A stretch of DNA of 14,613 nucleotides, taken from a virus (lineage: Duplodnaviria; Heunggongvirae; Uroviricota; Caudoviricetes; Crassvirales). The notes below the pieces were generated by a model. It was not told the origin of the DNA and did not search any database. It saw nothing but the letters and a program-made list of their open reading frames with translations. The position numbers were made by a program, and so were the translations under genes. Each line of letters opens with the position of its first letter. Within the stretch, counting starts at the first letter, position 1. This document shows, one piece after another, positions 9,426 through 13,419 of the stretch. The stretch is taken from positions 64,001-78,613 of IMG/VR virus record IMGVR_UViG_3300035698_016817; one strand, written 5' to 3'.

Positions 9426-9686
9426 TTAAAATTTTAGACCGTCTGCGGTCGGTTCGATTTTTGAATTGCTTGGGTCGTAGCTGTTTGGGTAAGGGTTTGG
9501 TTCATTCAATCTCTTGAGATCCATTCCTAGCCACATAATAGCTTCCTGAAGTTTTGCGATTGAAATTCTTCTTTCTCTAGAACTAGGAAGAGCCTTTAGT
9601 TTTTGCAAATTTTCATCAAGAGAAACTCTGAGTTCCTTGTTTGATATAACATCTGCTTCGATACTTAAATTCATTTTGTCTGACAT
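9426..9686 (-). CDS. Acb2/Tad1-like helical-hairpin protein (candidate immune-signal sponge)
   Basis: 86 aa. PSSRERRISIAKLQEAIMWL matches, from memory, the SRE..A/I..(L/V)(E/Q)EA.MW helix of Tad1/Acb2-family proteins. Confidence 0.6.
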   Translation of the reverse strand: MSDKMNLSIEADVISNKELRVSLDENLQKLKALPSSRERRISIAKLQEAIMWLGMDLKRLNEPNPYPNSYDPSNSKIEPTADGLKF

Positions 9687-9705
9687 ATCTGATTTTGTTA
9701 TCCGA

Positions 9706-9713
9706 CAAATATA
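9706..9713 (-). promoter_or_regulatory. Bacteroidota -7 promoter box TATATTTG for the Acb2-like to terL operon
   Basis: Exact TAnnTTTG between tRNA-Tyr and the ATG at 9686. Confidence 0.65.
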
Positions 9714-9725
9714 CAGAAATGTTAT

Positions 9726-9810
9726 TGGTAGGACAGATAGGACTCGAACCTATACAGCGTTAACGTCGGGGTTACAACCCGGTGAGCTCATGCCAGTGCT
9801 CAGCTGTCCT
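9726..9810 (-). tRNA. trnY: tRNA-Tyr(GTA), long variable arm, CCA encoded (block A)
   Basis: Acceptor AGGACAG/CTGTCCT, anticodon loop TTGTAAC, T-arm ATAGG-TTCGAGT-CCTAT. Confidence 0.9.
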
Positions 9811-9815
9811 ATTTG

Positions 9816-9902
9816 CAGAGGATATAGGAATCGAACCCTGCCGCTGTTACACGACCGCACCAAGGTTCAAACCTGGCTGGTCACCATTGACCGCTATCCT
9901 CT
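9816..9902 (-). tRNA. trnS: tRNA-Ser(TGA) (block A)
   Basis: Acceptor AGAGGAT/ATCCTCT, G73, loop TTTGAAC, long variable arm. Confidence 0.88.
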
Positions 9903-9910
9903 ATACTCTG

Positions 9911-9993
9911 CAGAAAACGGAGGCCTTGATCCCCAGTCCAGAACGGACCCAGCTCCTTAGCAGGGAGCGCCTACCCAGGTAGGTTCATCTTCT
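9911..9993 (-). tRNA. trnS: tRNA-Ser(GCT), atypical T-loop (block A)
   Basis: GCTCC-CTGCTAA-GGAGC anticodon arm, long variable arm, T-loop ATCAAGG, G73. Confidence 0.8.
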
Positions 9994-9998
9994 GTGTG

Positions 9999-10069
9999 AG
10001 GTACAAGTTGGATTCGAACCAACGTGACAAGGTTTGCAATCTTGCCCCTATCCTCTCGGTCATTGTACC
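9999..10069 (-). tRNA. trnC: tRNA-Cys(GCA) (block A)
   Basis: Acceptor GGTACAA/TTGTACC, U73, loop TTGCAAA. Confidence 0.9.
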
Positions 10070-10074
10070 TTAAG

Positions 10075-10146
10075 ATCTCCGTACCGGAATCGAACCGATT
10101 TATCCTGCTTACAAAACAAGCGCATCGCCATCAATGCTTACAGAGA
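10075..10146 (-). tRNA. trnT: tRNA-Thr(TGT) (block A)
   Basis: Acceptor TCTCTGT/ACGGAGA, loop TTTGTAA, T-loop TTCGATT. Confidence 0.88.
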
Positions 10147-10153
10147 ATATGTG

Positions 10154-10228
10154 TGCCCAAGGATGGAATCGAACCATCGAAAAACAGAGTTTAAGTCTGT
10201 CGCGTAGTCCTGCGTCCGCCACAAGGGC
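10154..10228 (-). tRNA. trnL: tRNA-Leu(TAA), short variable loop (block A)
   Basis: ACAGA-CTTAAAC-TCTGT, 5-nt variable loop, A73. Confidence 0.85.
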
Positions 10229-10233
10229 CAGTG

Positions 10234-10308
10234 TACTCCCAGCAGGGATCGAACCTGCAAAACTCTCGGGCCTAAACCGAGCGACTTTACCTATTTGCCC
10301 ATAGGAGC
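10234..10308 (-). tRNA. trnL: tRNA-Leu(TAG), short variable loop (block A)
   Basis: CTCGG-TTTAGGC-CCGAG, 6-nt variable loop, A73. Confidence 0.85.
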
Positions 10309-10310
10309 TT

Positions 10311-10348
10311 AAAACAAAAAATCCCCGTCCAAATTAATGAGCGGGGAT
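10311..10348 (-). terminator. Intrinsic terminator / attenuator hairpin A, upstream of tRNA block A
   Basis: ATCCCCG...CGGGGAT stem followed by TTTTTGTTTT on the minus strand. Confidence 0.85.
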
Positions 10349-10374
10349 CCAAAATATTGGGTGTACCTACTCCG

Positions 10375-10425
10375 TCACATGGCTGTGTACGATAACGTGA
10401 GTAGGCAATAACTAATCATTTTCAT
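10375..10425 (-). CDS. Leader peptide A, MKMISYCLLTLSYTAM (16 aa), putative attenuator sensor
   Basis: ATG 4 nt after a TAnnTTTG box. Codons AGT TAT TGC CTA CTC ACG TTA TCG TAC ACA match the downstream Ser/Tyr/Cys/Leu/Thr tRNAs. A terminator follows. Confidence 0.8.
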   Translation of the reverse strand: MKMISYCLLTLSYTAM

Positions 10426-10429
10426 GACG

Positions 10430-10437
10430 CAAATATA
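10430..10437 (-). promoter_or_regulatory. Bacteroidota -7 box TATATTTG for leader A / tRNA block A
   Basis: TATATTTG-CGTC-ATG. Confidence 0.75.
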
Positions 10438-10448
10438 AACATAATAAG

Positions 10449-10522
10449 TGGGACAGGCAGGTTTCGAACCATGCTCCTCAAGTTTTTCAGACTAGCGCTT
10501 CTACCAAGTTAGCTTCTGACCC
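10449..10522 (-). tRNA. trnF: tRNA-Phe(GAA) (block B)
   Basis: Loop CTGAAAA, acceptor GGGTCAG/CTGTCCC with one T.T mismatch, A73. Confidence 0.85.
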
Positions 10523-10526
10523 ATTG

Positions 10527-10595
10527 CGCACCCCCAAGGAATCGAACCTTGTCCTACGGTTTTGGAGACCGTTTGGCCACCATGGCCTGAAGTAC
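10527..10595 (-). tRNA. trnW: tRNA-Trp(CCA) (block B)
   Basis: ACGGT-CTCCAAA-ACCGT, T-arm CAAGG-TTCGATT-CCTTG, G73. Confidence 0.85.
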
Positions 10596-10600
10596 GTTTG

Positions 10601-10674
10601 CTCTAGTGACGGGAGTCGAACCCGCTTTCTTCCGATTAACAGTCGGTTGCTTCCGCCATTTCAGCCTCACTAGA
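10601..10674 (-). tRNA. trnN: tRNA-Asn(GTT) (block B)
   Basis: Acceptor TCTAGTG/CACTAGA, loop CTGTTAA, G73. Confidence 0.9.
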
Positions 10675-10676
10675 TG

Positions 10677-10748
10677 TAGTTCCTCTCGGATTCGAACCGA
10701 GGACGCTTGACATGTAACACCAACGCTCTACCACTGAGCTAAGGAACT
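10677..10748 (-). tRNA. trnV: tRNA-Val(TAC) (block B)
   Basis: Acceptor AGTTCCT/AGGAACT, D-stem GCTC/GAGC, unusual loop GTTACAT. Confidence 0.85.
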
Positions 10749-10753
10749 ATGTG

Positions 10754-10825
10754 TGACCCCGGCGAGTACCGATCTCGCGGCCCTTCCCTTAAAAGGGGAA
10801 TGCTCCACCATTGAGCTACGAGGTC
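10754..10825 (-). tRNA. trnK: tRNA-Lys(TTT), atypical T-loop (block B)
   Basis: TTCCC-CTTTTAA-GGGAA, T-arm GCGAG-ATCGGTA-CTCGC. Confidence 0.85.
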
Positions 10826-10835
10826 TTTTAAACGC

Positions 10836-10866
10836 AAAAAATCCCGCTTACTTTCGTAAACAGGAT
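10836..10866 (-). terminator. Intrinsic terminator / attenuator hairpin B, upstream of tRNA block B
   Basis: ATCCTGTTTAC-GAAA-GTAAGCGGGAT (11 bp, GNRA loop) followed by a T-tract. Confidence 0.85.
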
Positions 10867-10893
10867 CAATCTTATTTGGTATAAGTTCTCTGT

Positions 10894-10941
10894 TTACGTT
10901 TCCGTATCCTTAAAGACCTTATTCCAATTAAGTGTTCTCAC
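10894..10941 (-). CDS. Leader peptide B, MRTLNWNKVFKDTET (15 aa, GTG start), putative attenuator sensor
   Basis: GTG 4 nt after TATGTTTG. The run AAT TGG AAT AAG GTC TTT AAG matches the Asn, Trp, Lys, Val and Phe tRNAs downstream. Confidence 0.78.
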   Translation of the reverse strand: MRTLNWNKVFKDTET

Positions 10942-10945
10942 GGTG

Positions 10946-10953
10946 CAAACATA
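10946..10953 (-). promoter_or_regulatory. Bacteroidota -7 box TATGTTTG for leader B / tRNA block B
   Basis: TATGTTTG-CACC-GTG. Confidence 0.72.
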
Positions 10954-10965
10954 AGCATTTTATTG

Positions 10966-11038
10966 AGACCCTACCAGGATTCAAACCTGGATACCTCGGG
11001 TAGAAGCCGAGTGCTCTGTTCAGTTGAGCTATAAGGCC
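10966..11038 (-). tRNA. trnR: tRNA-Arg(TCT) (block C)
   Basis: CTCGG-CTTCTAC-CCGAG, acceptor GGCCTTA/TAGGGTC. Confidence 0.88.
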
Positions 11039-11042
11039 GTTG

Positions 11043-11114
11043 TACGCAACAAAGGATTCGAACCTTCATCTCCGAGTCCGTAGCTCAGCGTGTTGTCCGT
11101 TACACTAATCGCGC
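11043..11114 (-). tRNA. trnR: tRNA-Arg(ACG) (block C)
   Basis: CTGAG-CTACGGA-CTCGG, D-stem GTGT/ACAC. Confidence 0.85.
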
Positions 11115-11118
11115 GTAT

Positions 11119-11196
11119 TGGGGTGTAAGAGGGGACTCGAACCCCCTAATGACCAACTCCACAGATTGGCGCTTCGACCACTTCAGCTTCCTACAC
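11119..11196 (-). tRNA. trnH: tRNA-His(GTG), CCA encoded, position -1 is T (block C)
   Basis: CCAAT-CTGTGGA-GTTGG, acceptor GTGTAGG/CTTACAC, C73. Confidence 0.88.
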
Positions 11197-11198
11197 AG

Positions 11199-11269
11199 TT
11201 CCCAGAGAAGGATTCGAACCTCCGTGACCGGCTTCAAAAACCAGCATCCTGCCGCTAGATGATCCGGGA
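11199..11269 (-). tRNA. trnQ: tRNA-Gln(TTG) (block C)
   Basis: CTGGT-TTTTGAA-GCCGG, acceptor TCCCGGA/TCTGGGA. Confidence 0.85.
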
Positions 11270-11275
11270 ATTAAG

Positions 11276-11347
11276 TACCGAGGGAAGGATTTGAACCTTC
11301 GACCGCTTACGTATCAGGCAAGTGCTCTACCGCTGAGCTACCCAGGT
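11276..11347 (-). tRNA. trnI: tRNA-Ile(GAT) (block C)
   Basis: CTTGC-CTGATAC-GTAAG, D-stem GCTC/GAGC, A73. Confidence 0.88.
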
Positions 11348-11355
11348 ATATTTGT

Positions 11356-11449
11356 TTAAGGTCTGCATGTCTCCCACGGTTCATTGGTGGCGGACGGCAT
11401 GCACTTAAAGAGCTTCTTTTTCCTTGAAACCTTTCACTCTTTACCTTAA
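11356..11449 (-). ncRNA. Unknown structured element (three-way junction) between tRNA-Ala and tRNA-Ile
   Basis: Closing stem TTAAGGT/ACCTTAA. Arms AAAGAGT/GCTCTTT and TGCATG/CATGCA, the latter with an inner CCAC/GTGG. Confidence 0.45.
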
Positions 11450-11450
11450 G

Positions 11451-11520
11451 TGGAGTACGAGGGAGTCGAACCCTAACATTTTCGTTGCAAACGAAATGAC
11501 CTGCCATCGGCATCGCCCCC
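11451..11520 (-). tRNA. trnA: tRNA-Ala(TGC), irregular acceptor stem (block C)
   Basis: TTTCG-TTTGCAA-CGAAA. G3:U70 and A73 retained; the lower acceptor stem is mismatched or bulged. Confidence 0.75.
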
Positions 11521-11532
11521 ATATTCTTTCTG

Positions 11533-11605
11533 TTGGCCCGGTGGGTCACGATCCCACTCTCTTCTTGTTATGAGCAAGATGCTTTCCCCGTTAAGCTACG
11601 CGCCG
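11533..11605 (-). tRNA. tRNA with CAT anticodon, probably Ile2 (lysidine) rather than Met (block C)
   Basis: TCTTG-CTCATAA-CAAGA, C1.A72 mismatch, atypical T-loop ATCGTGA. The Ile2 identity is inferred from the ATA codon in leader C. Confidence 0.75.
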
Positions 11606-11615
11606 ATATGCTATG

Positions 11616-11689
11616 TACCCCGTATGGGATTCGAACCCATGTCCTTCTAGTTGAAAACCAGACGTCCTGAGCCTCTAGACCAACGGGAC
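11616..11689 (-). tRNA. trnE: tRNA-Glu(TTC) (block C)
   Basis: TCTGG-TTTTCAA-CTAGA, T-arm ATGGG-TTCGAAT-CCCAT. Confidence 0.88.
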
Positions 11690-11695
11690 TTAATA

Positions 11696-11772
11696 TGGTT
11701 GCGGGACTGGGATTCGAACCCAGGACCTCTAGGTTATGAGTCTAGCGAGCTGGCCAACTGCTCTATCCCGCA
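11696..11772 (-). tRNA. trnM: tRNA-Met(CAT), fMet-like scaffold but without the three G:C anticodon-stem pairs; CCA encoded (block C)
   Basis: TGCGGGA/TCCCGCA, D-stem GAGC/GCTC, loop CTCATAA. Confidence 0.85.
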
Positions 11773-11779
11773 ATAAATG

Positions 11780-11852
11780 TGCAGTAGGTCAGACTCGAAC
11801 TGACAACCTAGTGCTTGGAAGGCACCCGCTCTGGCGTTGGAGCTACTACTGC
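11780..11852 (-). tRNA. trnG: tRNA-Gly(TCC) (block C)
   Basis: GGTGC-CTTCCAA-GCACT, acceptor GCAGTAG/CTACTGC, A73. Confidence 0.85.
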
Positions 11853-11857
11853 ATTAA

Positions 11858-11990
11858 AAAAGCATGGTGAGGTAAGTTGCCTCTCCTTATGATTGCGTTG
11901 TGGTTGTCTTAACGGTTGTCCTCTGGTGGACGGTCGTCCTTAAGTTAGGCCCTTGCCTTACAATACGCAATATATACTCACTCATGCTTT
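11858..11990 (-). ncRNA. Unknown rod-like structured element between tRNA-Asp and tRNA-Gly, containing a Thr-rich 32-codon ORF (11887-11985)
   Basis: Nested stems AAAGCATG/CATGCTTT, GTGAG/CTCAC, ATTGCGT/ACGCAAT, CTTAA/TTAAG and GGAC/GTCC. Confidence 0.5.
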
Positions 11991-11993
11991 AAG

Positions 11994-12066
11994 CGGTCCT
12001 AGACGGGATCGAACCGACTACCTTCCCGCAGACAACGGGCTATCCTACCATTAGGACCTTAGGACC
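11994..12066 (-). tRNA. trnD: tRNA-Asp(GTC) (block C)
   Basis: Acceptor GGTCCTA/TAGGACC, G73, loop TTGTCTG. Confidence 0.85.
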
Positions 12067-12073
12067 AATATTA

Positions 12074-12123
12074 AGAGCGAAGAGGTCATGAACCCCTTTA
12101 AGTGCTGCAGCACCGAACACTCT
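12074..12123 (-). ncRNA. 50-nt tRNA-like minihelix (acceptor-like stem plus T-arm-like hairpin; no anticodon arm)
   Basis: AGAGTG/CGCTCT, GTGC-TGCA-GCAC, AAGGGG-TTCATGA-CCTCTT. Confidence 0.4.
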
Positions 12124-12125
12124 AG

Positions 12126-12198
12126 TATGGGAAGCAGGGCTCGAACCTACGATCTCCGCGTCCCAAACGCGGCGCGATACCAACTTCGCTATTCCCAT
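12126..12198 (-). tRNA. trnP: tRNA-Pro(TGG), first tRNA of block C
   Basis: CCGCG-TTTGGGA-CGCGG, acceptor ATGGGAA/TTCCCAT, A73. Confidence 0.9.
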
Positions 12199-12203
12199 GT
12201 AAC

Positions 12204-12236
12204 AAAAAAGCCCCTCTCTATTCGAGAAGGGCTTTT
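12204..12236 (-). terminator. Intrinsic terminator / attenuator hairpin C, upstream of tRNA block C
   Basis: AAAAGCCCTTCTC-GAATA-GAGAGGGGCTTTTTT. Confidence 0.88.
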
Positions 12237-12257
12237 GATTTTTTAATGTCTATGTCT

Positions 12258-12344
12258 TTATTTTCTCGAATACATAGAGTTCCCTTTCGTCCCGCCATTG
12301 GCGCGATCCATAATCGGTTGTTCTATATGTCTTCCTGTATTCAT
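12258..12344 (-). CDS. Leader peptide C, MNTGRHIEQPIMDRANGGTKGNSMYSRK (28 aa), putative attenuator sensor
   Basis: Codons 4-15 (GGA AGA CAT ATA GAA CAA CCG ATT ATG GAT CGC GCC) map one-to-one onto the 12 tRNAs of block C. The last codons contain the antiterminator strand. Confidence 0.82.
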   Translation of the reverse strand: MNTGRHIEQPIMDRANGGTKGNSMYSRK

Positions 12345-12352
12345 TGAAGCCT

Positions 12353-12360
12353 CAAAGCTA
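12353..12360 (-). promoter_or_regulatory. Bacteroidota -7 box TAGCTTTG for leader C / tRNA block C
   Basis: TAnnTTTG 8 nt before the leader ATG, overlapping the upstream TAG stop. A TTG lies 20 nt upstream (-33-like). Confidence 0.6.
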
Positions 12361-12564
12361 GTCATCTTTTTTCTTTTCTACAACTATTTCAGGAAGTATT
12401 TCATCTTCTATTTCAGCTGTTGGTTTTCTAATCTTTTTTTCAAGAGCTATTTGAAAATCAATGAACCCTTCTTTTCCCGTGTAACAAGAGGGGCCTATCT
12501 TGTAAGACCCTGGCTTTATTTCCTTGTTCATTTTTTCTCTGGCACTCTTCTCCCACTTTTCCAT
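12358..12564 (-). CDS. Hypothetical 68-aa protein
   Basis: Protein-like composition (GSYKIGPSCYTGKEGFIDF). Stop lies just before leader C. Confidence 0.55.
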   Translation of the reverse strand: MEKWEKSAREKMNKEIKPGSYKIGPSCYTGKEGFIDFQIALEKKIRKPTAEIEDEILPEIVVEKKKDD

Positions 12565-12655
12565 TTTGATATTTTTTAAAGTTTTTGATTGCTTCTTTTT
12601 GAGCCATTATGGCTATGTATCCCGACATTCCTCTTTGTCTTGGGTTCTTTATCAT
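12458..12655 (-). CDS. Possible small basic protein coupled to the spanin-like gene; overlaps the next ORF by 107 nt
   Basis: ATGA overlap with the stop at 12652. The large overlap with 12358-12564 makes one of the two doubtful. Confidence 0.35.
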   Translation of the reverse strand: MIKNPRQRGMSGYIAIMAQKEAIKNFKKYQNGKVGEECQRKNEQGNKARVLQDRPLLLHGKRRVH

Positions 12656-13419
12656 TTGATGTTAAAGTTTTTGATGTATCCCACCCCTAAGGTCCACCCT
12701 GGTTGATTTTGAAATAAGTATCCTCCTTTAATTATGAACTGATTGTTTTTTAGGTCCATATAAGAAACCATCGCGGAGGTCTCCATGCCTCTAAAGTGTG
12801 GGCTTGACCCCATATTGTGATACTCCAGTTCTCCGCCCATCCCAATTTTTCTGTATGGACCAATAGGAATAGCGGTCTCAACTGTTCGTTCAGTAGATAT
12901 AATTGGTGCGATTCTTTTGTAAGAAAGCTTTGGCGCTCCTTCAAGCTTTCCTTGAGTCTTGAATTCGTAATAGATGACCATGGTTTCGTCTCTAACTGAA
13001 TCCATGTACGTACGAATGGTAGATAAATCTTTGATCCTTTCTTCGCATTCCGTAAGGCTAAATTCGTACCGTCTGAGTGATGATGACATGTCATCAATAC
13101 TATCAGAAGCATTAGAGCTTGGAACGGGGCGTTTCCATTTGTTAAGTACCGGTAACTCTTCGAAAACAGGTATTGGCTCAGAAACATTTAAAATTGTTAT
13201 TGCTGAATCAAATGTAGTTATTTCAATAACATTATCAGATATTGTATCTCCTCTTTCTGGGATCTGACATTTTCCGTTTATTGTTAAAGGCCCGTTGTGA
13301 GTCAGCTGACAGAATATGATATAAATCCCCATCAGTAAGATGATCATCTCCTTTGGATATCTTAACAAAAGAGCGAAGAAGGTTGATAGCCCTTGTTTTA
13401 TGAGGATCATTAAGTTCAT
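12652..13419 (-). CDS. Spanin-like lysis accessory protein
   Basis: ATGA-coupled to the endolysin stop. N-terminal hydrophobic segment (MIILLMGIYIIFC), central coiled coil, C-terminal Gly/aromatic amphipathic beta-strands (GWTLGVGY). Confidence 0.55.
   Translation of the reverse strand: MNLMILIKQGLSTFFALLLRYPKEMIILLMGIYIIFCQLTHNGPLTINGKCQIPERGDTISDNVIEITTFDSAITILNVSEPIPVFEELPVLNKWKRPVPSSNASDSIDDMSSSLRRYEFSLTECEERIKDLSTIRTYMDSVRDETMVIYYEFKTQGKLEGAPKLSYKRIAPIISTERTVETAIPIGPYRKIGMGGELEYHNMGSSPHFRGMETSAMVSYMDLKNNQFIIKGGYLFQNQPGWTLGVGYIKNFNIK

What the first reader, a model, noticed from the sequence alone, without database searches (positions are those of the whole stretch)
10836..10953. Attenuator B: NWNKVFK sensor with 1:2, 2:3 and 3:4 helices
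Block B is Lys, Val, Asn, Trp, Phe, and the leader run AAT TGG AAT AAG GTC TTT AAG uses exactly these amino acids. Helix 1:2: TTGGAATAAGGTCTTT (10927-10912, the sensor codons themselves) pairs with AGAGAACTTATACCAA (10891-10876) at 14 of 16 positions, enclosing a TACG-GAAA-CGTA tetraloop hairpin. Helix 2:3: CGTAAACAG (10898-10890, spanning the TAA stop) is the perfect complement of CTGTTTACG (10863-10855) in the terminator 5' arm. Helix 3:4 is the GNRA-capped terminator.
Basis: partly seen in the sequence, partly recalled or inferred. Interest (0 to 1): 0.85.

Follow-up and report, generated by a model that had tools for sequence, protein, structure and literature searches.

The report
Leader-peptide attenuator gating phage tRNAs
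In front of five phage tRNA genes sits a tiny reading frame spelled in the codons those five tRNAs read, wired to a terminator/antiterminator RNA switch, so the phage probably makes these tRNAs only when ribosomes run short of them; I found no published report of this control for tRNA genes.

Summary
Window 10953-10834 (minus strand) holds, in order:
- a Bacteroidota -7 promoter box;
- four bases later a GTG that opens a 15-codon frame;
- an uninterrupted N-W-N-K-V-F-K run;
- a long 1:2 hairpin (z -5.9);
- a perfect 9-bp 2:3 pairing spanning the stop codon (p 0.004);
- a GAAA-capped intrinsic terminator.

The genes behind it are tRNA-Lys, Val, Asn, Trp and Phe.

Masking a ribosome footprint in silico makes the antiterminator the best fold only while the A site lies on codons 4-11, which covers the sensor run (codons 5-11).

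The two sister units in the same array follow the same rule. So do units in Cellulophaga phages Calle_1, phi4:1 and phi10:1, Tenacibaculum phage Gundel_1, several IMG/VR contigs and Caulobacter phage RB23. Where the tRNA grouping differs, the leader composition differs with it (permutation p <= 5e-5). A Chitinophaga his-operon leader uses the same leaderless layout.

I read it as a trp-type attenuator applied to tRNA genes. It is inferred from sequence alone; no expression data exist. Seven literature searches found no description. This scan has noted the same class before on other phage DNA.

The parts
10946..10953 (-). Predicted sigma-A -7 promoter box TATGTTTG (Bacteroidota consensus TAnnTTTG). 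It is followed by CACC (4 nt) and then GTG, so the predicted transcript starts at or next to the start codon (leaderless mRNA).
   Evidence: Sequence. The box spans -12 to -5 with 4-5 nt to the TSS in flavobacteria (PMC6847099, PMC9723704). The same box plus a 4-nt gap precedes the leader start in win_C, Calle_1, phi4:1, phi10:1, Gundel_1, the IMG/VR units and a Chitinophaga his leader.
10894..10941 (-). Leader ORF: GTG plus 14 sense codons plus TAA (peptide V/M-RTLNWNKVFKDTET).
10909..10929 (-). Sensor run N-W-N-K-V-F-K. Seven consecutive codons use exactly the five amino acids of the downstream tRNAs. Six of the seven are the third-position wobble partner of the phage anticodon.
10871..10932 (-). 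Hairpin 1:2 (anti-antiterminator, possibly also a pause hairpin). The sensor codons pair with 10891-10871. It encloses a UACG-GAAA-CGUA mini-hairpin (10906-10895).
   Evidence: -17.5 kcal/mol; z -5.9.
10890..10898 (-). Core of region 2 (CGTAAACAG), spanning the TAA stop codon. This is the 5' strand of the antiterminator.
   Evidence: perfect 9 bp, duplex -10.0 kcal/mol; p 0.004.
10855..10863 (-). Core of region 3 (CTGTTTACG) within the terminator 5' arm. It pairs either with region 2 or with region 4.
10834..10867 (-). Intrinsic terminator: a 12-bp stem with a GAAA loop (10867-10840), then the run TTTTTT (10839-10834) followed by GCGTTT.
   Evidence: -15.3 kcal/mol.
10449..10825 (-). Regulated genes: tRNA-Lys(ttt), tRNA-Val(tac), tRNA-Asn(gtt), tRNA-Trp(cca) and tRNA-Phe(gaa), separated by 1-4 nt.
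10320..10437 (-). Sister unit in front of Leu, Leu, Thr, Cys, Ser, Ser, Tyr: box TATATTTG, 4 nt, ATG, leader MKMI-SYCLLTLSYT-AM, then a terminator.
12208..12360 (-). Sister unit in front of the 12-tRNA block (Pro to Arg): box TAGCTTTG, ATG at 12344, leader MNT-GRHIEQPIMDRA-NGG..., then a terminator.

Best explanation
Window 10953-10834 (minus strand) is a ribosome-mediated transcription attenuator of the trp type. It controls a five-gene phage tRNA operon (Lys, Val, Asn, Trp, Phe).

Proposed mechanism:
1. Host RNA polymerase starts at or next to the GTG. A ribosome loads on the leaderless 5' end and reads the 15-codon frame.
2. If all five aminoacyl-tRNAs are plentiful, the ribosome runs to the TAA. 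There it covers region 2 (10898-10876), so the terminator 3:4 forms and transcription stops before tRNA-Lys.
3. If any of the five is scarce, the ribosome stalls on N-W-N-K-V-F-K. This keeps region 1 out of helix 1:2 and leaves region 2 free. Region 2 pairs with the terminator's 5' arm as that arm emerges, and the polymerase reads through into the tRNA genes.
4. With no ribosome at all, helix 1:2 forms and termination follows.

The result is negative feedback on the supply of exactly the tRNAs the block encodes.

Shown here: the sequence elements, their statistics, and the covariation between leaders and tRNA sets across phages. Inferred: the promoter, translation of the leader, the kinetics of the switch, and the natural cause of tRNA shortage.
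For: 1. All four RNA regions, the ORF and the terminator sit at the stated coordinates.
2. Statistics: leader fold z -5.9; 2:3 complementarity p 0.004; the sensor run is one of only two such runs in 157,222 codon positions of the contig.
3. Footprint-masked folding: the 2:3 antiterminator is the MFE of the transcript truncated before region 4 only when the A site is at codons 4-11. It is lost from codons 12-13 onward. At the stop codon region 2 is masked.
4. The three leaders of this array give in-set runs of 12, 7 and 10 codons against their own block, and at most 2 against the other blocks. Each run covers its block's full amino-acid set, and together they cover all 20 amino acids.
5. The same design, with different tRNA groupings and matching leaders, is present in:
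   - Calle_1 and phi4:1, three units each;
   - phi10:1 and Gundel_1;
   - IMG/VR contigs L020/L021, L022, L025 and L031;
   - Caulobacter phage RB23.
   Permuting leaders against blocks over 15 units gives p <= 5e-5.
6. Region 2 lies at the 3' end of the leader ORF in every unit examined. The distance from stop codon to terminator is 21-29 nt in 14 of 16 phage units. Combined antiterminator p-values are 5e-7 (9 units) and 1e-5 (6 further units).
7. A Chitinophaga hisG leader (MKTNTHVHHHVTCLQR) has the same box, the same 4-nt gap, a leaderless start and a region 2 that spans the stop codon. The layout is therefore a genuine attenuator format in the host phylum.
8. The promoter precedes the terminator, so transcripts from it must pass the terminator to reach the tRNAs.
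Against: - No RNA data, and no sequence variation in the metagenome contigs laid on the region, so helices 1:2, 2:3 and 3:4 of this particular unit have no covariation support.
- A leaderless GUG start is weaker than AUG in well-studied bacteria. The box TATGTTTG also has G at -9, which is almost absent from F. johnsoniae promoters (PMC6847099), although phi4:1 and Gundel_1 use the same box.
- The antiterminator (about -10 to -12 kcal/mol) is weaker than the terminator (-15.3 kcal/mol). The terminator is the equilibrium winner in every masked state, so the switch must be kinetic.
- Only one or two codons per tRNA are sampled, so sensitivity is unknown.
- There is no terminator between tRNA-Arg(tct) and this leader. 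Some copies of the leader will therefore lie inside longer transcripts from block A, where the leaderless mode does not apply.
- The host is unknown.
Confidence: 0.8

Rival explanations
1. The leader is translated and does report tRNA supply, but the output is not intrinsic-terminator read-through. Stalling might instead change Rho access, RNase cleavage or pre-tRNA processing or stability, with the hairpin acting mainly as a processing or insulating element.
For: The terminator is thermodynamically favoured in all simulated states. The antiterminator p-values of some sister units are not significant taken singly (win_A 0.18, win_C 0.25, L025 0.52).
Against: A canonical stem plus U-run is present in all Bacteroidota-phage units examined. 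Region 2 complementarity is significant overall. The stop-to-terminator spacing is conserved at 21-29 nt. The geometry matches a his-operon attenuator of the same phylum.
Confidence: 0.1
2. The hairpin is simply the terminator or insulator at the end of the upstream tRNA block. The short frame and its amino-acid match are coincidence.
For: No other terminator separates block A from block B. A 7-codon run taken alone has a chance of about 1e-3 in a spacer of this size.
Against: The promoter box lies upstream of the terminator, not downstream. The same match holds for all three units here and for at least 12 units in other phages, with covariation. The antiterminator and helix 1:2 are each individually significant.
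Confidence: 0.03
3. The leader RNA binds the tRNAs directly through codon-anticodon contacts, like a multi-specifier T-box, without translation.
For: The sensor triplets are complementary to the anticodons of the downstream tRNAs.
Against: No T-box or other riboswitch match appears at E <= 1. The triplets are contiguous and in one frame, opened by a start codon at the fixed 4-nt position and closed by a stop codon in every unit. A his-operon leader shares the layout.
Confidence: 0.03
4. The 15-residue peptide is itself the functional product, and its composition is incidental.
For: Some homologous leaders are annotated as hypothetical proteins, for example RB23 gp135.
Against: The peptide sequence is not conserved. 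NWNKVFK has no tRNA-linked homologue in IMG/VR. Only the amino-acid set is conserved, and it tracks the tRNA set.
Confidence: 0.02

Closest known systems
E. coli trp operon attenuator (trpL) and the his, leu, phe and thr leaders (textbook ribosome-mediated attenuation)
   Same: A short leader ORF holding the regulatory codons. Four RNA regions with mutually exclusive 1:2, 2:3 and 3:4 pairings. The stop codon is placed so that a terminating ribosome masks region 2. An intrinsic terminator lies before the regulated genes. trpL also senses with only two codons.
   Different: The regulated genes are tRNAs, not biosynthetic enzymes. The sensor samples five different amino acids once or twice each, not a run of one. 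The mRNA is predicted to be leaderless, with no Shine-Dalgarno sequence. The element is phage-borne. There is no Rfam leader-family match for this unit.
Multivalent attenuators ilvGMEDA (Leu/Val/Ile) and thr (Thr/Ile)
   Same: One leader integrates shortage of several different aminoacyl-tRNAs.
   Different: Those leaders sense 2-3 amino acids with many repeats each. Here 5 (and 12 or 7 in the sister units) are sensed at about one codon per tRNA. The codon list also mirrors the gene list behind the terminator.
pheST attenuator (pheM leader) and T-box riboswitches of aminoacyl-tRNA synthetase genes
   Same: Transcription attenuation that adjusts the translation apparatus to the supply of charged tRNA.
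   Different: Those systems control synthetases, not tRNA genes. T-boxes bind uncharged tRNA directly, whereas no T-box features are present here.
Bacteroidota his-operon leader found here (Chitinophaga MAG, L096:1403-1353, upstream of hisG)
   Same: The same -7 box, 4-nt gap and leaderless start. The same MKT-type opening, since GTG AGA ACA in B aligns with ATG AAA ACA. Region 2 spans the stop codon. An intrinsic terminator follows.
   Different: The sensor is a His-rich stretch (HVHHHV) and the regulated gene is hisG.
Leaderless polycysteine short ORF attenuators of mycobacteria (bioRxiv 10.1101/834739)
   Same: A leaderless short ORF acts as an amino-acid-responsive attenuator of downstream genes.
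   Different: A different phylum, a single amino acid, and the targets are protein-coding operons. I saw only the title and abstract.

Membership tests
Ribosome-mediated (leader-peptide) transcription attenuator | Promoter upstream of the leader, in the same orientation as the regulated genes, so that transcripts must pass the terminator | tested here: met
   TATGTTTG at 10953-10946, 4 nt before GTG. The order is promoter, ORF, terminator, tRNA-Lys. Promoter geometry comes from PMC6847099 and PMC9723704. Only the motif was tested; promoter activity was not.
Ribosome-mediated (leader-peptide) transcription attenuator | Short ORF with a start codon and a stop codon in the leader transcript | tested here: met
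   GTG at 10941, TAA at 10896-10894, 16 codons including the stop. Translation itself was not tested.
Ribosome-mediated (leader-peptide) transcription attenuator | Regulatory codons cognate to what the operon supplies | tested here: met
   Seven consecutive codons cover exactly Lys, Val, Asn, Trp and Phe. The own-block run is 7 codons, against 1-2 for the other blocks.
Ribosome-mediated (leader-peptide) transcription attenuator | Intrinsic terminator between the leader ORF and the regulated genes | tested here: met
   A 12-bp stem with a GAAA loop and a U-run, -15.3 kcal/mol.
Ribosome-mediated (leader-peptide) transcription attenuator | Antiterminator pairing that excludes the terminator, and an upstream 1:2 pairing that excludes the antiterminator | tested here: met
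   Helix 2:3 is 9/9 perfect, p 0.004. Helix 1:2 pairs 14/16 within a -17.5 kcal/mol hairpin, z -5.9.
Ribosome-mediated (leader-peptide) transcription attenuator | Ribosome position decides the fold: a stall on the sensor frees region 2, and a ribosome at the stop codon masks it | tested here: met
   In silico only. The antiterminator is the MFE for A-site codons 4-11 and is lost from codons 12-13. The assumed footprint is -15 to +12 nt from the first base of the A-site codon.
Ribosome-mediated (leader-peptide) transcription attenuator | Read-through increases in vivo when the cognate charged tRNA is scarce | not testable with these tools
   No listed sequencing run that holds this stretch is on record as RNA.
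T-box riboswitch (RF00230) | Stem I with a specifier loop and the conserved T-box antiterminator sequence, detectable by the Rfam model | tested here: not met
   No T-box match at the gathering score or at E <= 1 over 9650-12450.
Rfam amino-acid operon leader families (Trp, His, Leu, Thr leaders) | Match to the family covariance model | tested here: not met
   Nothing matches unit B. The only hit is a sub-threshold Thr_leader match (23.5 bits, E 0.2) on the sister unit at 12201-12279.

The most novel reading that the evidence does not exclude
The attenuators are counter-defence sentinels rather than nutritional sensors. Each leader samples about one codon per phage tRNA, often the wobble codon. 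A unit would therefore fire only when a particular host tRNA is nearly absent. That could follow cleavage by an anticodon nuclease (PrrC, RloC, PARIS or a retron-type effector) or phage-induced decay of host tRNA. The unit would then switch on just the replacement set. Block B would be the Lys/Asn/Trp/Phe/Val replacement cassette.
Probability: 0.3. Interest if true: 0.9.

Novelty: new variant of a known kind. Interest (0 to 1): 0.85.

Why it matters
Phage tRNA genes are usually discussed as constitutive aids for codon usage or as decoys against tRNA-cleaving defences. How their expression is set is largely unknown.

A leader peptide that lists the tRNAs behind its terminator would mean phages measure decoding speed codon by codon and top up only the tRNAs that are short. 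That extends a textbook mechanism (trp, his, ilv attenuation) to the tRNA genes themselves.

The design recurs in phages of Flavobacteriia and Caulobacter with cultured hosts, so it is directly testable. The leaders could also serve as compact, programmable sensors of individual tRNA pools.

Tried and rejected
- Close relatives for covariation of helices 1:2, 2:3 and 3:4. The neighbouring 255-aa protein has no relatives in IMG/VR. Terminase relatives in IMG/VR and JGI metagenomes carry no tRNA array next to the terminase, apart from L002 with a collapsed one.
- The exact B-type terminator pattern found only phi4:1.
- Back-translated NWNKVFK found 25 IMG/VR loci, none with tRNAs downstream.
- Near-identity search of the cultured-phage collection: no match.
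- Expression: no RNA holder listed. Contigs of four salt-lake DNA runs laid on the region were identical across 10826-10964, so they gave no information.
- Rfam: no riboswitch or leader family for unit B.
- Generality controls, using one scanner. No unit was found in the tRNA regions of Prevotella phage Lak-B1, Vibrio phage nt-1, T5, Roseobacter phage DSS3P8 or Rhizobium phage RHph_TM30.
- One borderline ORF in Erwinia phage phiEa21-4 (MTGQLRRWSVS...) was rejected because no terminator follows it.
- Bacterial genomes: 81 matches to the shared promoter/leader-start motif were checked and none precedes tRNA genes.
- My simple terminator finder missed the GC-rich terminators of RB23. Those two units were therefore not scored for the antiterminator.

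Full report
**Context**

The window is the last 14.6 kb of a 78.6-kb IMG/VR viral contig. It carries portal, large terminase and endolysin genes.

On the minus strand, 12198-9726 holds 24 tRNA genes. ARAGORN of them. Phe is called by Rfam. Ala(tgc), Phe(gaa) and Ser(gct) appear with ARAGORN at a lowered threshold.

The array falls into three blocks:
- Pro to Arg (12 genes);
- Lys-Val-Asn-Trp-Phe;
- Leu-Leu-Thr-Cys-Ser-Ser-Tyr.

The finding concerns the 139-nt spacer 10964-10826 in front of the second block.

**Observation**

- GTG lies at 10941-10939.
- The frame reads V/M-RTLNWNKVFKDTET, with TAA at 10896-10894.
- Helix 1:2 pairs 14 of 16 positions and belongs to a 62-nt hairpin of -17.5 kcal/mol that encloses a GAAA-capped mini-hairpin.
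- CGTAAACAG (10898-10890) is the perfect complement of CTGTTTACG (10863-10855).
- The terminator (10867-10840, GAAA loop, -15.3 kcal/mol) is followed by a U-run.

The spacer folds far better than shuffled sequence, z -5.5 as a whole and z -5.9 without the terminator. Complementarity between the segment after the sensor run and the terminator arm plus loop beats 996 of 1000 dinucleotide shuffles. Across all six frames of the contig, only two runs of 7 or more codons from {K,V,N,W,F} contain all five residues, and one is this leader.

**Promoter and start codon**

Eight bases, TATGTTTG (10953-10946), match the Bacteroidota sigma-A -7 element TAnnTTTG. In flavobacteria this element spans -12 to -5, with 4-5 nt to the transcription start (PMC6847099 and PMC9723704).

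Exactly 4 nt separate the box from the GTG. The same 4-nt gap precedes the ATG of the sister unit at 10437-10423 and of units in Calle_1, phi4:1, phi10:1, Gundel_1 and several IMG/VR contigs. The leaders are therefore predicted to be leaderless mRNAs.

GTG AGA ACA in B aligns with the frequent opening ATG AAA ACA (MKT) of the other leaders. This supports GTG as the start.

Two caveats apply. The G at -9 of the box is rare in F. johnsoniae promoters. A leaderless GUG is usually weaker than AUG.

**Switch logic**

I masked a ribosome footprint (-15 to +12 nt from the first base of the A-site codon) and folded the transcript truncated just before the terminator's 3' arm.
- A site on codons 4-11 (the sensor run is codons 5-11): the best fold is the 2:3 antiterminator, with 10 of the 12 arm bases paired (-12.2 to -13.3 kcal/mol).
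- From codons 12-13 onward: the antiterminator is lost.
- At the stop codon: region 2 is covered.
- Without a ribosome: hairpin 1:2 forms.

In the full-length RNA the terminator always wins at equilibrium, as it does in trp. The choice must therefore be kinetic.

**The sister units and relatives**

The unit before the third block reads MKMI-SYCLLTLSYT-AM. The unit before the first block reads MNT-GRHIEQPIMDRA-NGG.... Each run uses only the amino acids of its own block and covers all of them. In-set runs are 12, 7 and 10 codons against the own block, and at most 2 against the others.

The same architecture (promoter box, short ORF, terminator, tRNA block) occurs in:
- Cellulophaga phage Calle_1, three units;
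- phi4:1, three units;
- phi10:1 and Tenacibaculum phage Gundel_1;
- IMG/VR contigs L020/L021, L022, L025 and L031;
- Caulobacter phage RB23, behind sigma-70-type promoters.

In those phages the tRNAs are grouped differently. For example, Lys goes with Ala, Ile, Gly, Met, Asp, Thr, Val and Arg, and Leu goes with Pro, Glu, Gln, His and Arg. The leaders follow the grouping. Permuting leaders against blocks over 15 units never reached the observed score (p <= 5e-5).

The terminators of the three window units resemble those of the three phi4:1 units. The units therefore look homologous, while their tRNA content and leader codons have been reshuffled together.

Region 2 lies at the 3' end of the ORF in every unit examined. 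The stop-to-terminator distance is 21-29 nt in 14 of 16 phage units. The antiterminator p-values combine to 5e-7 (9 units) and 1e-5 (6 further units).

**Link to a textbook case**

Searching bacterial genomes for the shared promoter/leader-start motif found no tRNA-linked case among 81 matches. It did find a Chitinophaga leader, MKTNTHVHHHVTCLQR, followed by a terminator and then hisG (PF01634, E 3e-52). That leader has the same box, the same 4-nt gap and a region 2 spanning the stop codon (p 0.009). The phage units therefore use the attenuator layout of the host phylum.

**Controls**

The same scanner found nothing in the tRNA regions of Lak-B1, nt-1, T5, DSS3P8 or RHph_TM30. It found one borderline ORF without a terminator in phiEa21-4. 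The design is therefore not a general by-product of tRNA arrays.

**Codon choice**

In B, six of the seven sensor codons are third-position wobble partners of the phage anticodon. GTC makes up only 10% of Val codons in the phage's long ORFs. This may raise sensitivity, or it may simply serve helix 1:2. I leave it open.

**What is not shown**

- No RNA holder is listed.
- The metagenome contigs are identical here.
- No homologous B leader exists in IMG/VR for covariation analysis.
- The host is unknown.
- No terminator separates block A from this leader, so part of the leader RNA will lie inside longer transcripts.

**Known or new**

Seven full-text searches found no description of leader-peptide attenuation of tRNA genes, in phage or in cells. 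The library lacks most subscription journals.

Earlier notes of this scan describe the same class on other phage DNA. I re-derived it independently on Cellulophaga, Tenacibaculum and Caulobacter phages.

The mechanism class is known. The target (tRNA genes) and the sensor that lists the downstream tRNAs are new, hence a new variant of a known kind.

**Verdict**

Confidence that unit B is a ribosome-mediated attenuator of the Lys-Val-Asn-Trp-Phe tRNA block is 0.8. The trigger, whether nutritional shortage, codon demand late in infection or tRNA destruction by host defence, remains open.

Noticed in passing
L096:1353-1403 (minus strand), Chitinophaga pinensis MAG: A leaderless-format leader, MKTNTHVHHHVTCLQR, plus a terminator lies directly upstream of hisG. 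This is a his-operon attenuator of the host phylum. It shares the promoter box, 4-nt gap, MKT opening and stop-spanning region 2 of the phage tRNA units.
   Followed up: partly
window 11853-11992 (minus strand): The 140-nt spacer between tRNA-Asp and tRNA-Gly, inside the first block, is structured (-36.9 kcal/mol, z -3.6). It has a long closing stem followed by a U-run. It shares a conserved core (GGACAACYGTTWAGACAACCA) with the Thr-Val spacer of phi4:1. This is an unexplained conserved RNA inside tRNA arrays.
   Followed up: partly
L002:5440-5790 (IMGVR_UViG_3300020048_000077): A relative with 71% terminase identity has lost the array. Only tRNA-Pro and a hybrid remnant (5' part of tRNA-Met fused to the 3' end of tRNA-Tyr) remain. 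The homologous leader (MSIK-RHIEQPII-N-DRAM...) and its terminator are still present, which looks like a recent deletion.
   Followed up: partly
window 10941-10958 (minus strand): A mini-frame, ATG CTT ATG TTT GCA CCG TGA (MLMFAP), overlies the promoter box. Its TGA overlaps the leader's GTG (GTGA). It could couple translation into the leader on read-through transcripts coming from block A.
   Followed up: no
window 11348-11449 and 12067-12124 (minus strand): Two further spacers inside the first block (about 100 nt after tRNA-Ala, and 58 nt between Pro and Asp) have no promoter box, codon-matched frame or terminator. Their role is unknown.
   Followed up: no
window 11696-11772 (minus strand): One of the two CAT-anticodon tRNAs starts with C and would face A at position 72, an initiator-like feature. 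The leader of the first block holds both ATA and ATG, so one CAT tRNA may be Ile2 or an initiator rather than an elongator Met.
   Followed up: no
L039:5074-5202 (Erwinia phage phiEa21-4): The short frame MTGQLRRWSVSPDCQDNQ precedes Gly, Trp, Thr, Val, Leu, Arg, Gln and His tRNAs, but no terminator follows it. It is probably chance and was not counted.
   Followed up: partly
window 9600-12700: Contigs of several salt-lake metagenome runs from 2017-2018 hold this stretch, nearly identical to the window. This points to a saline-lake host.
   Followed up: no
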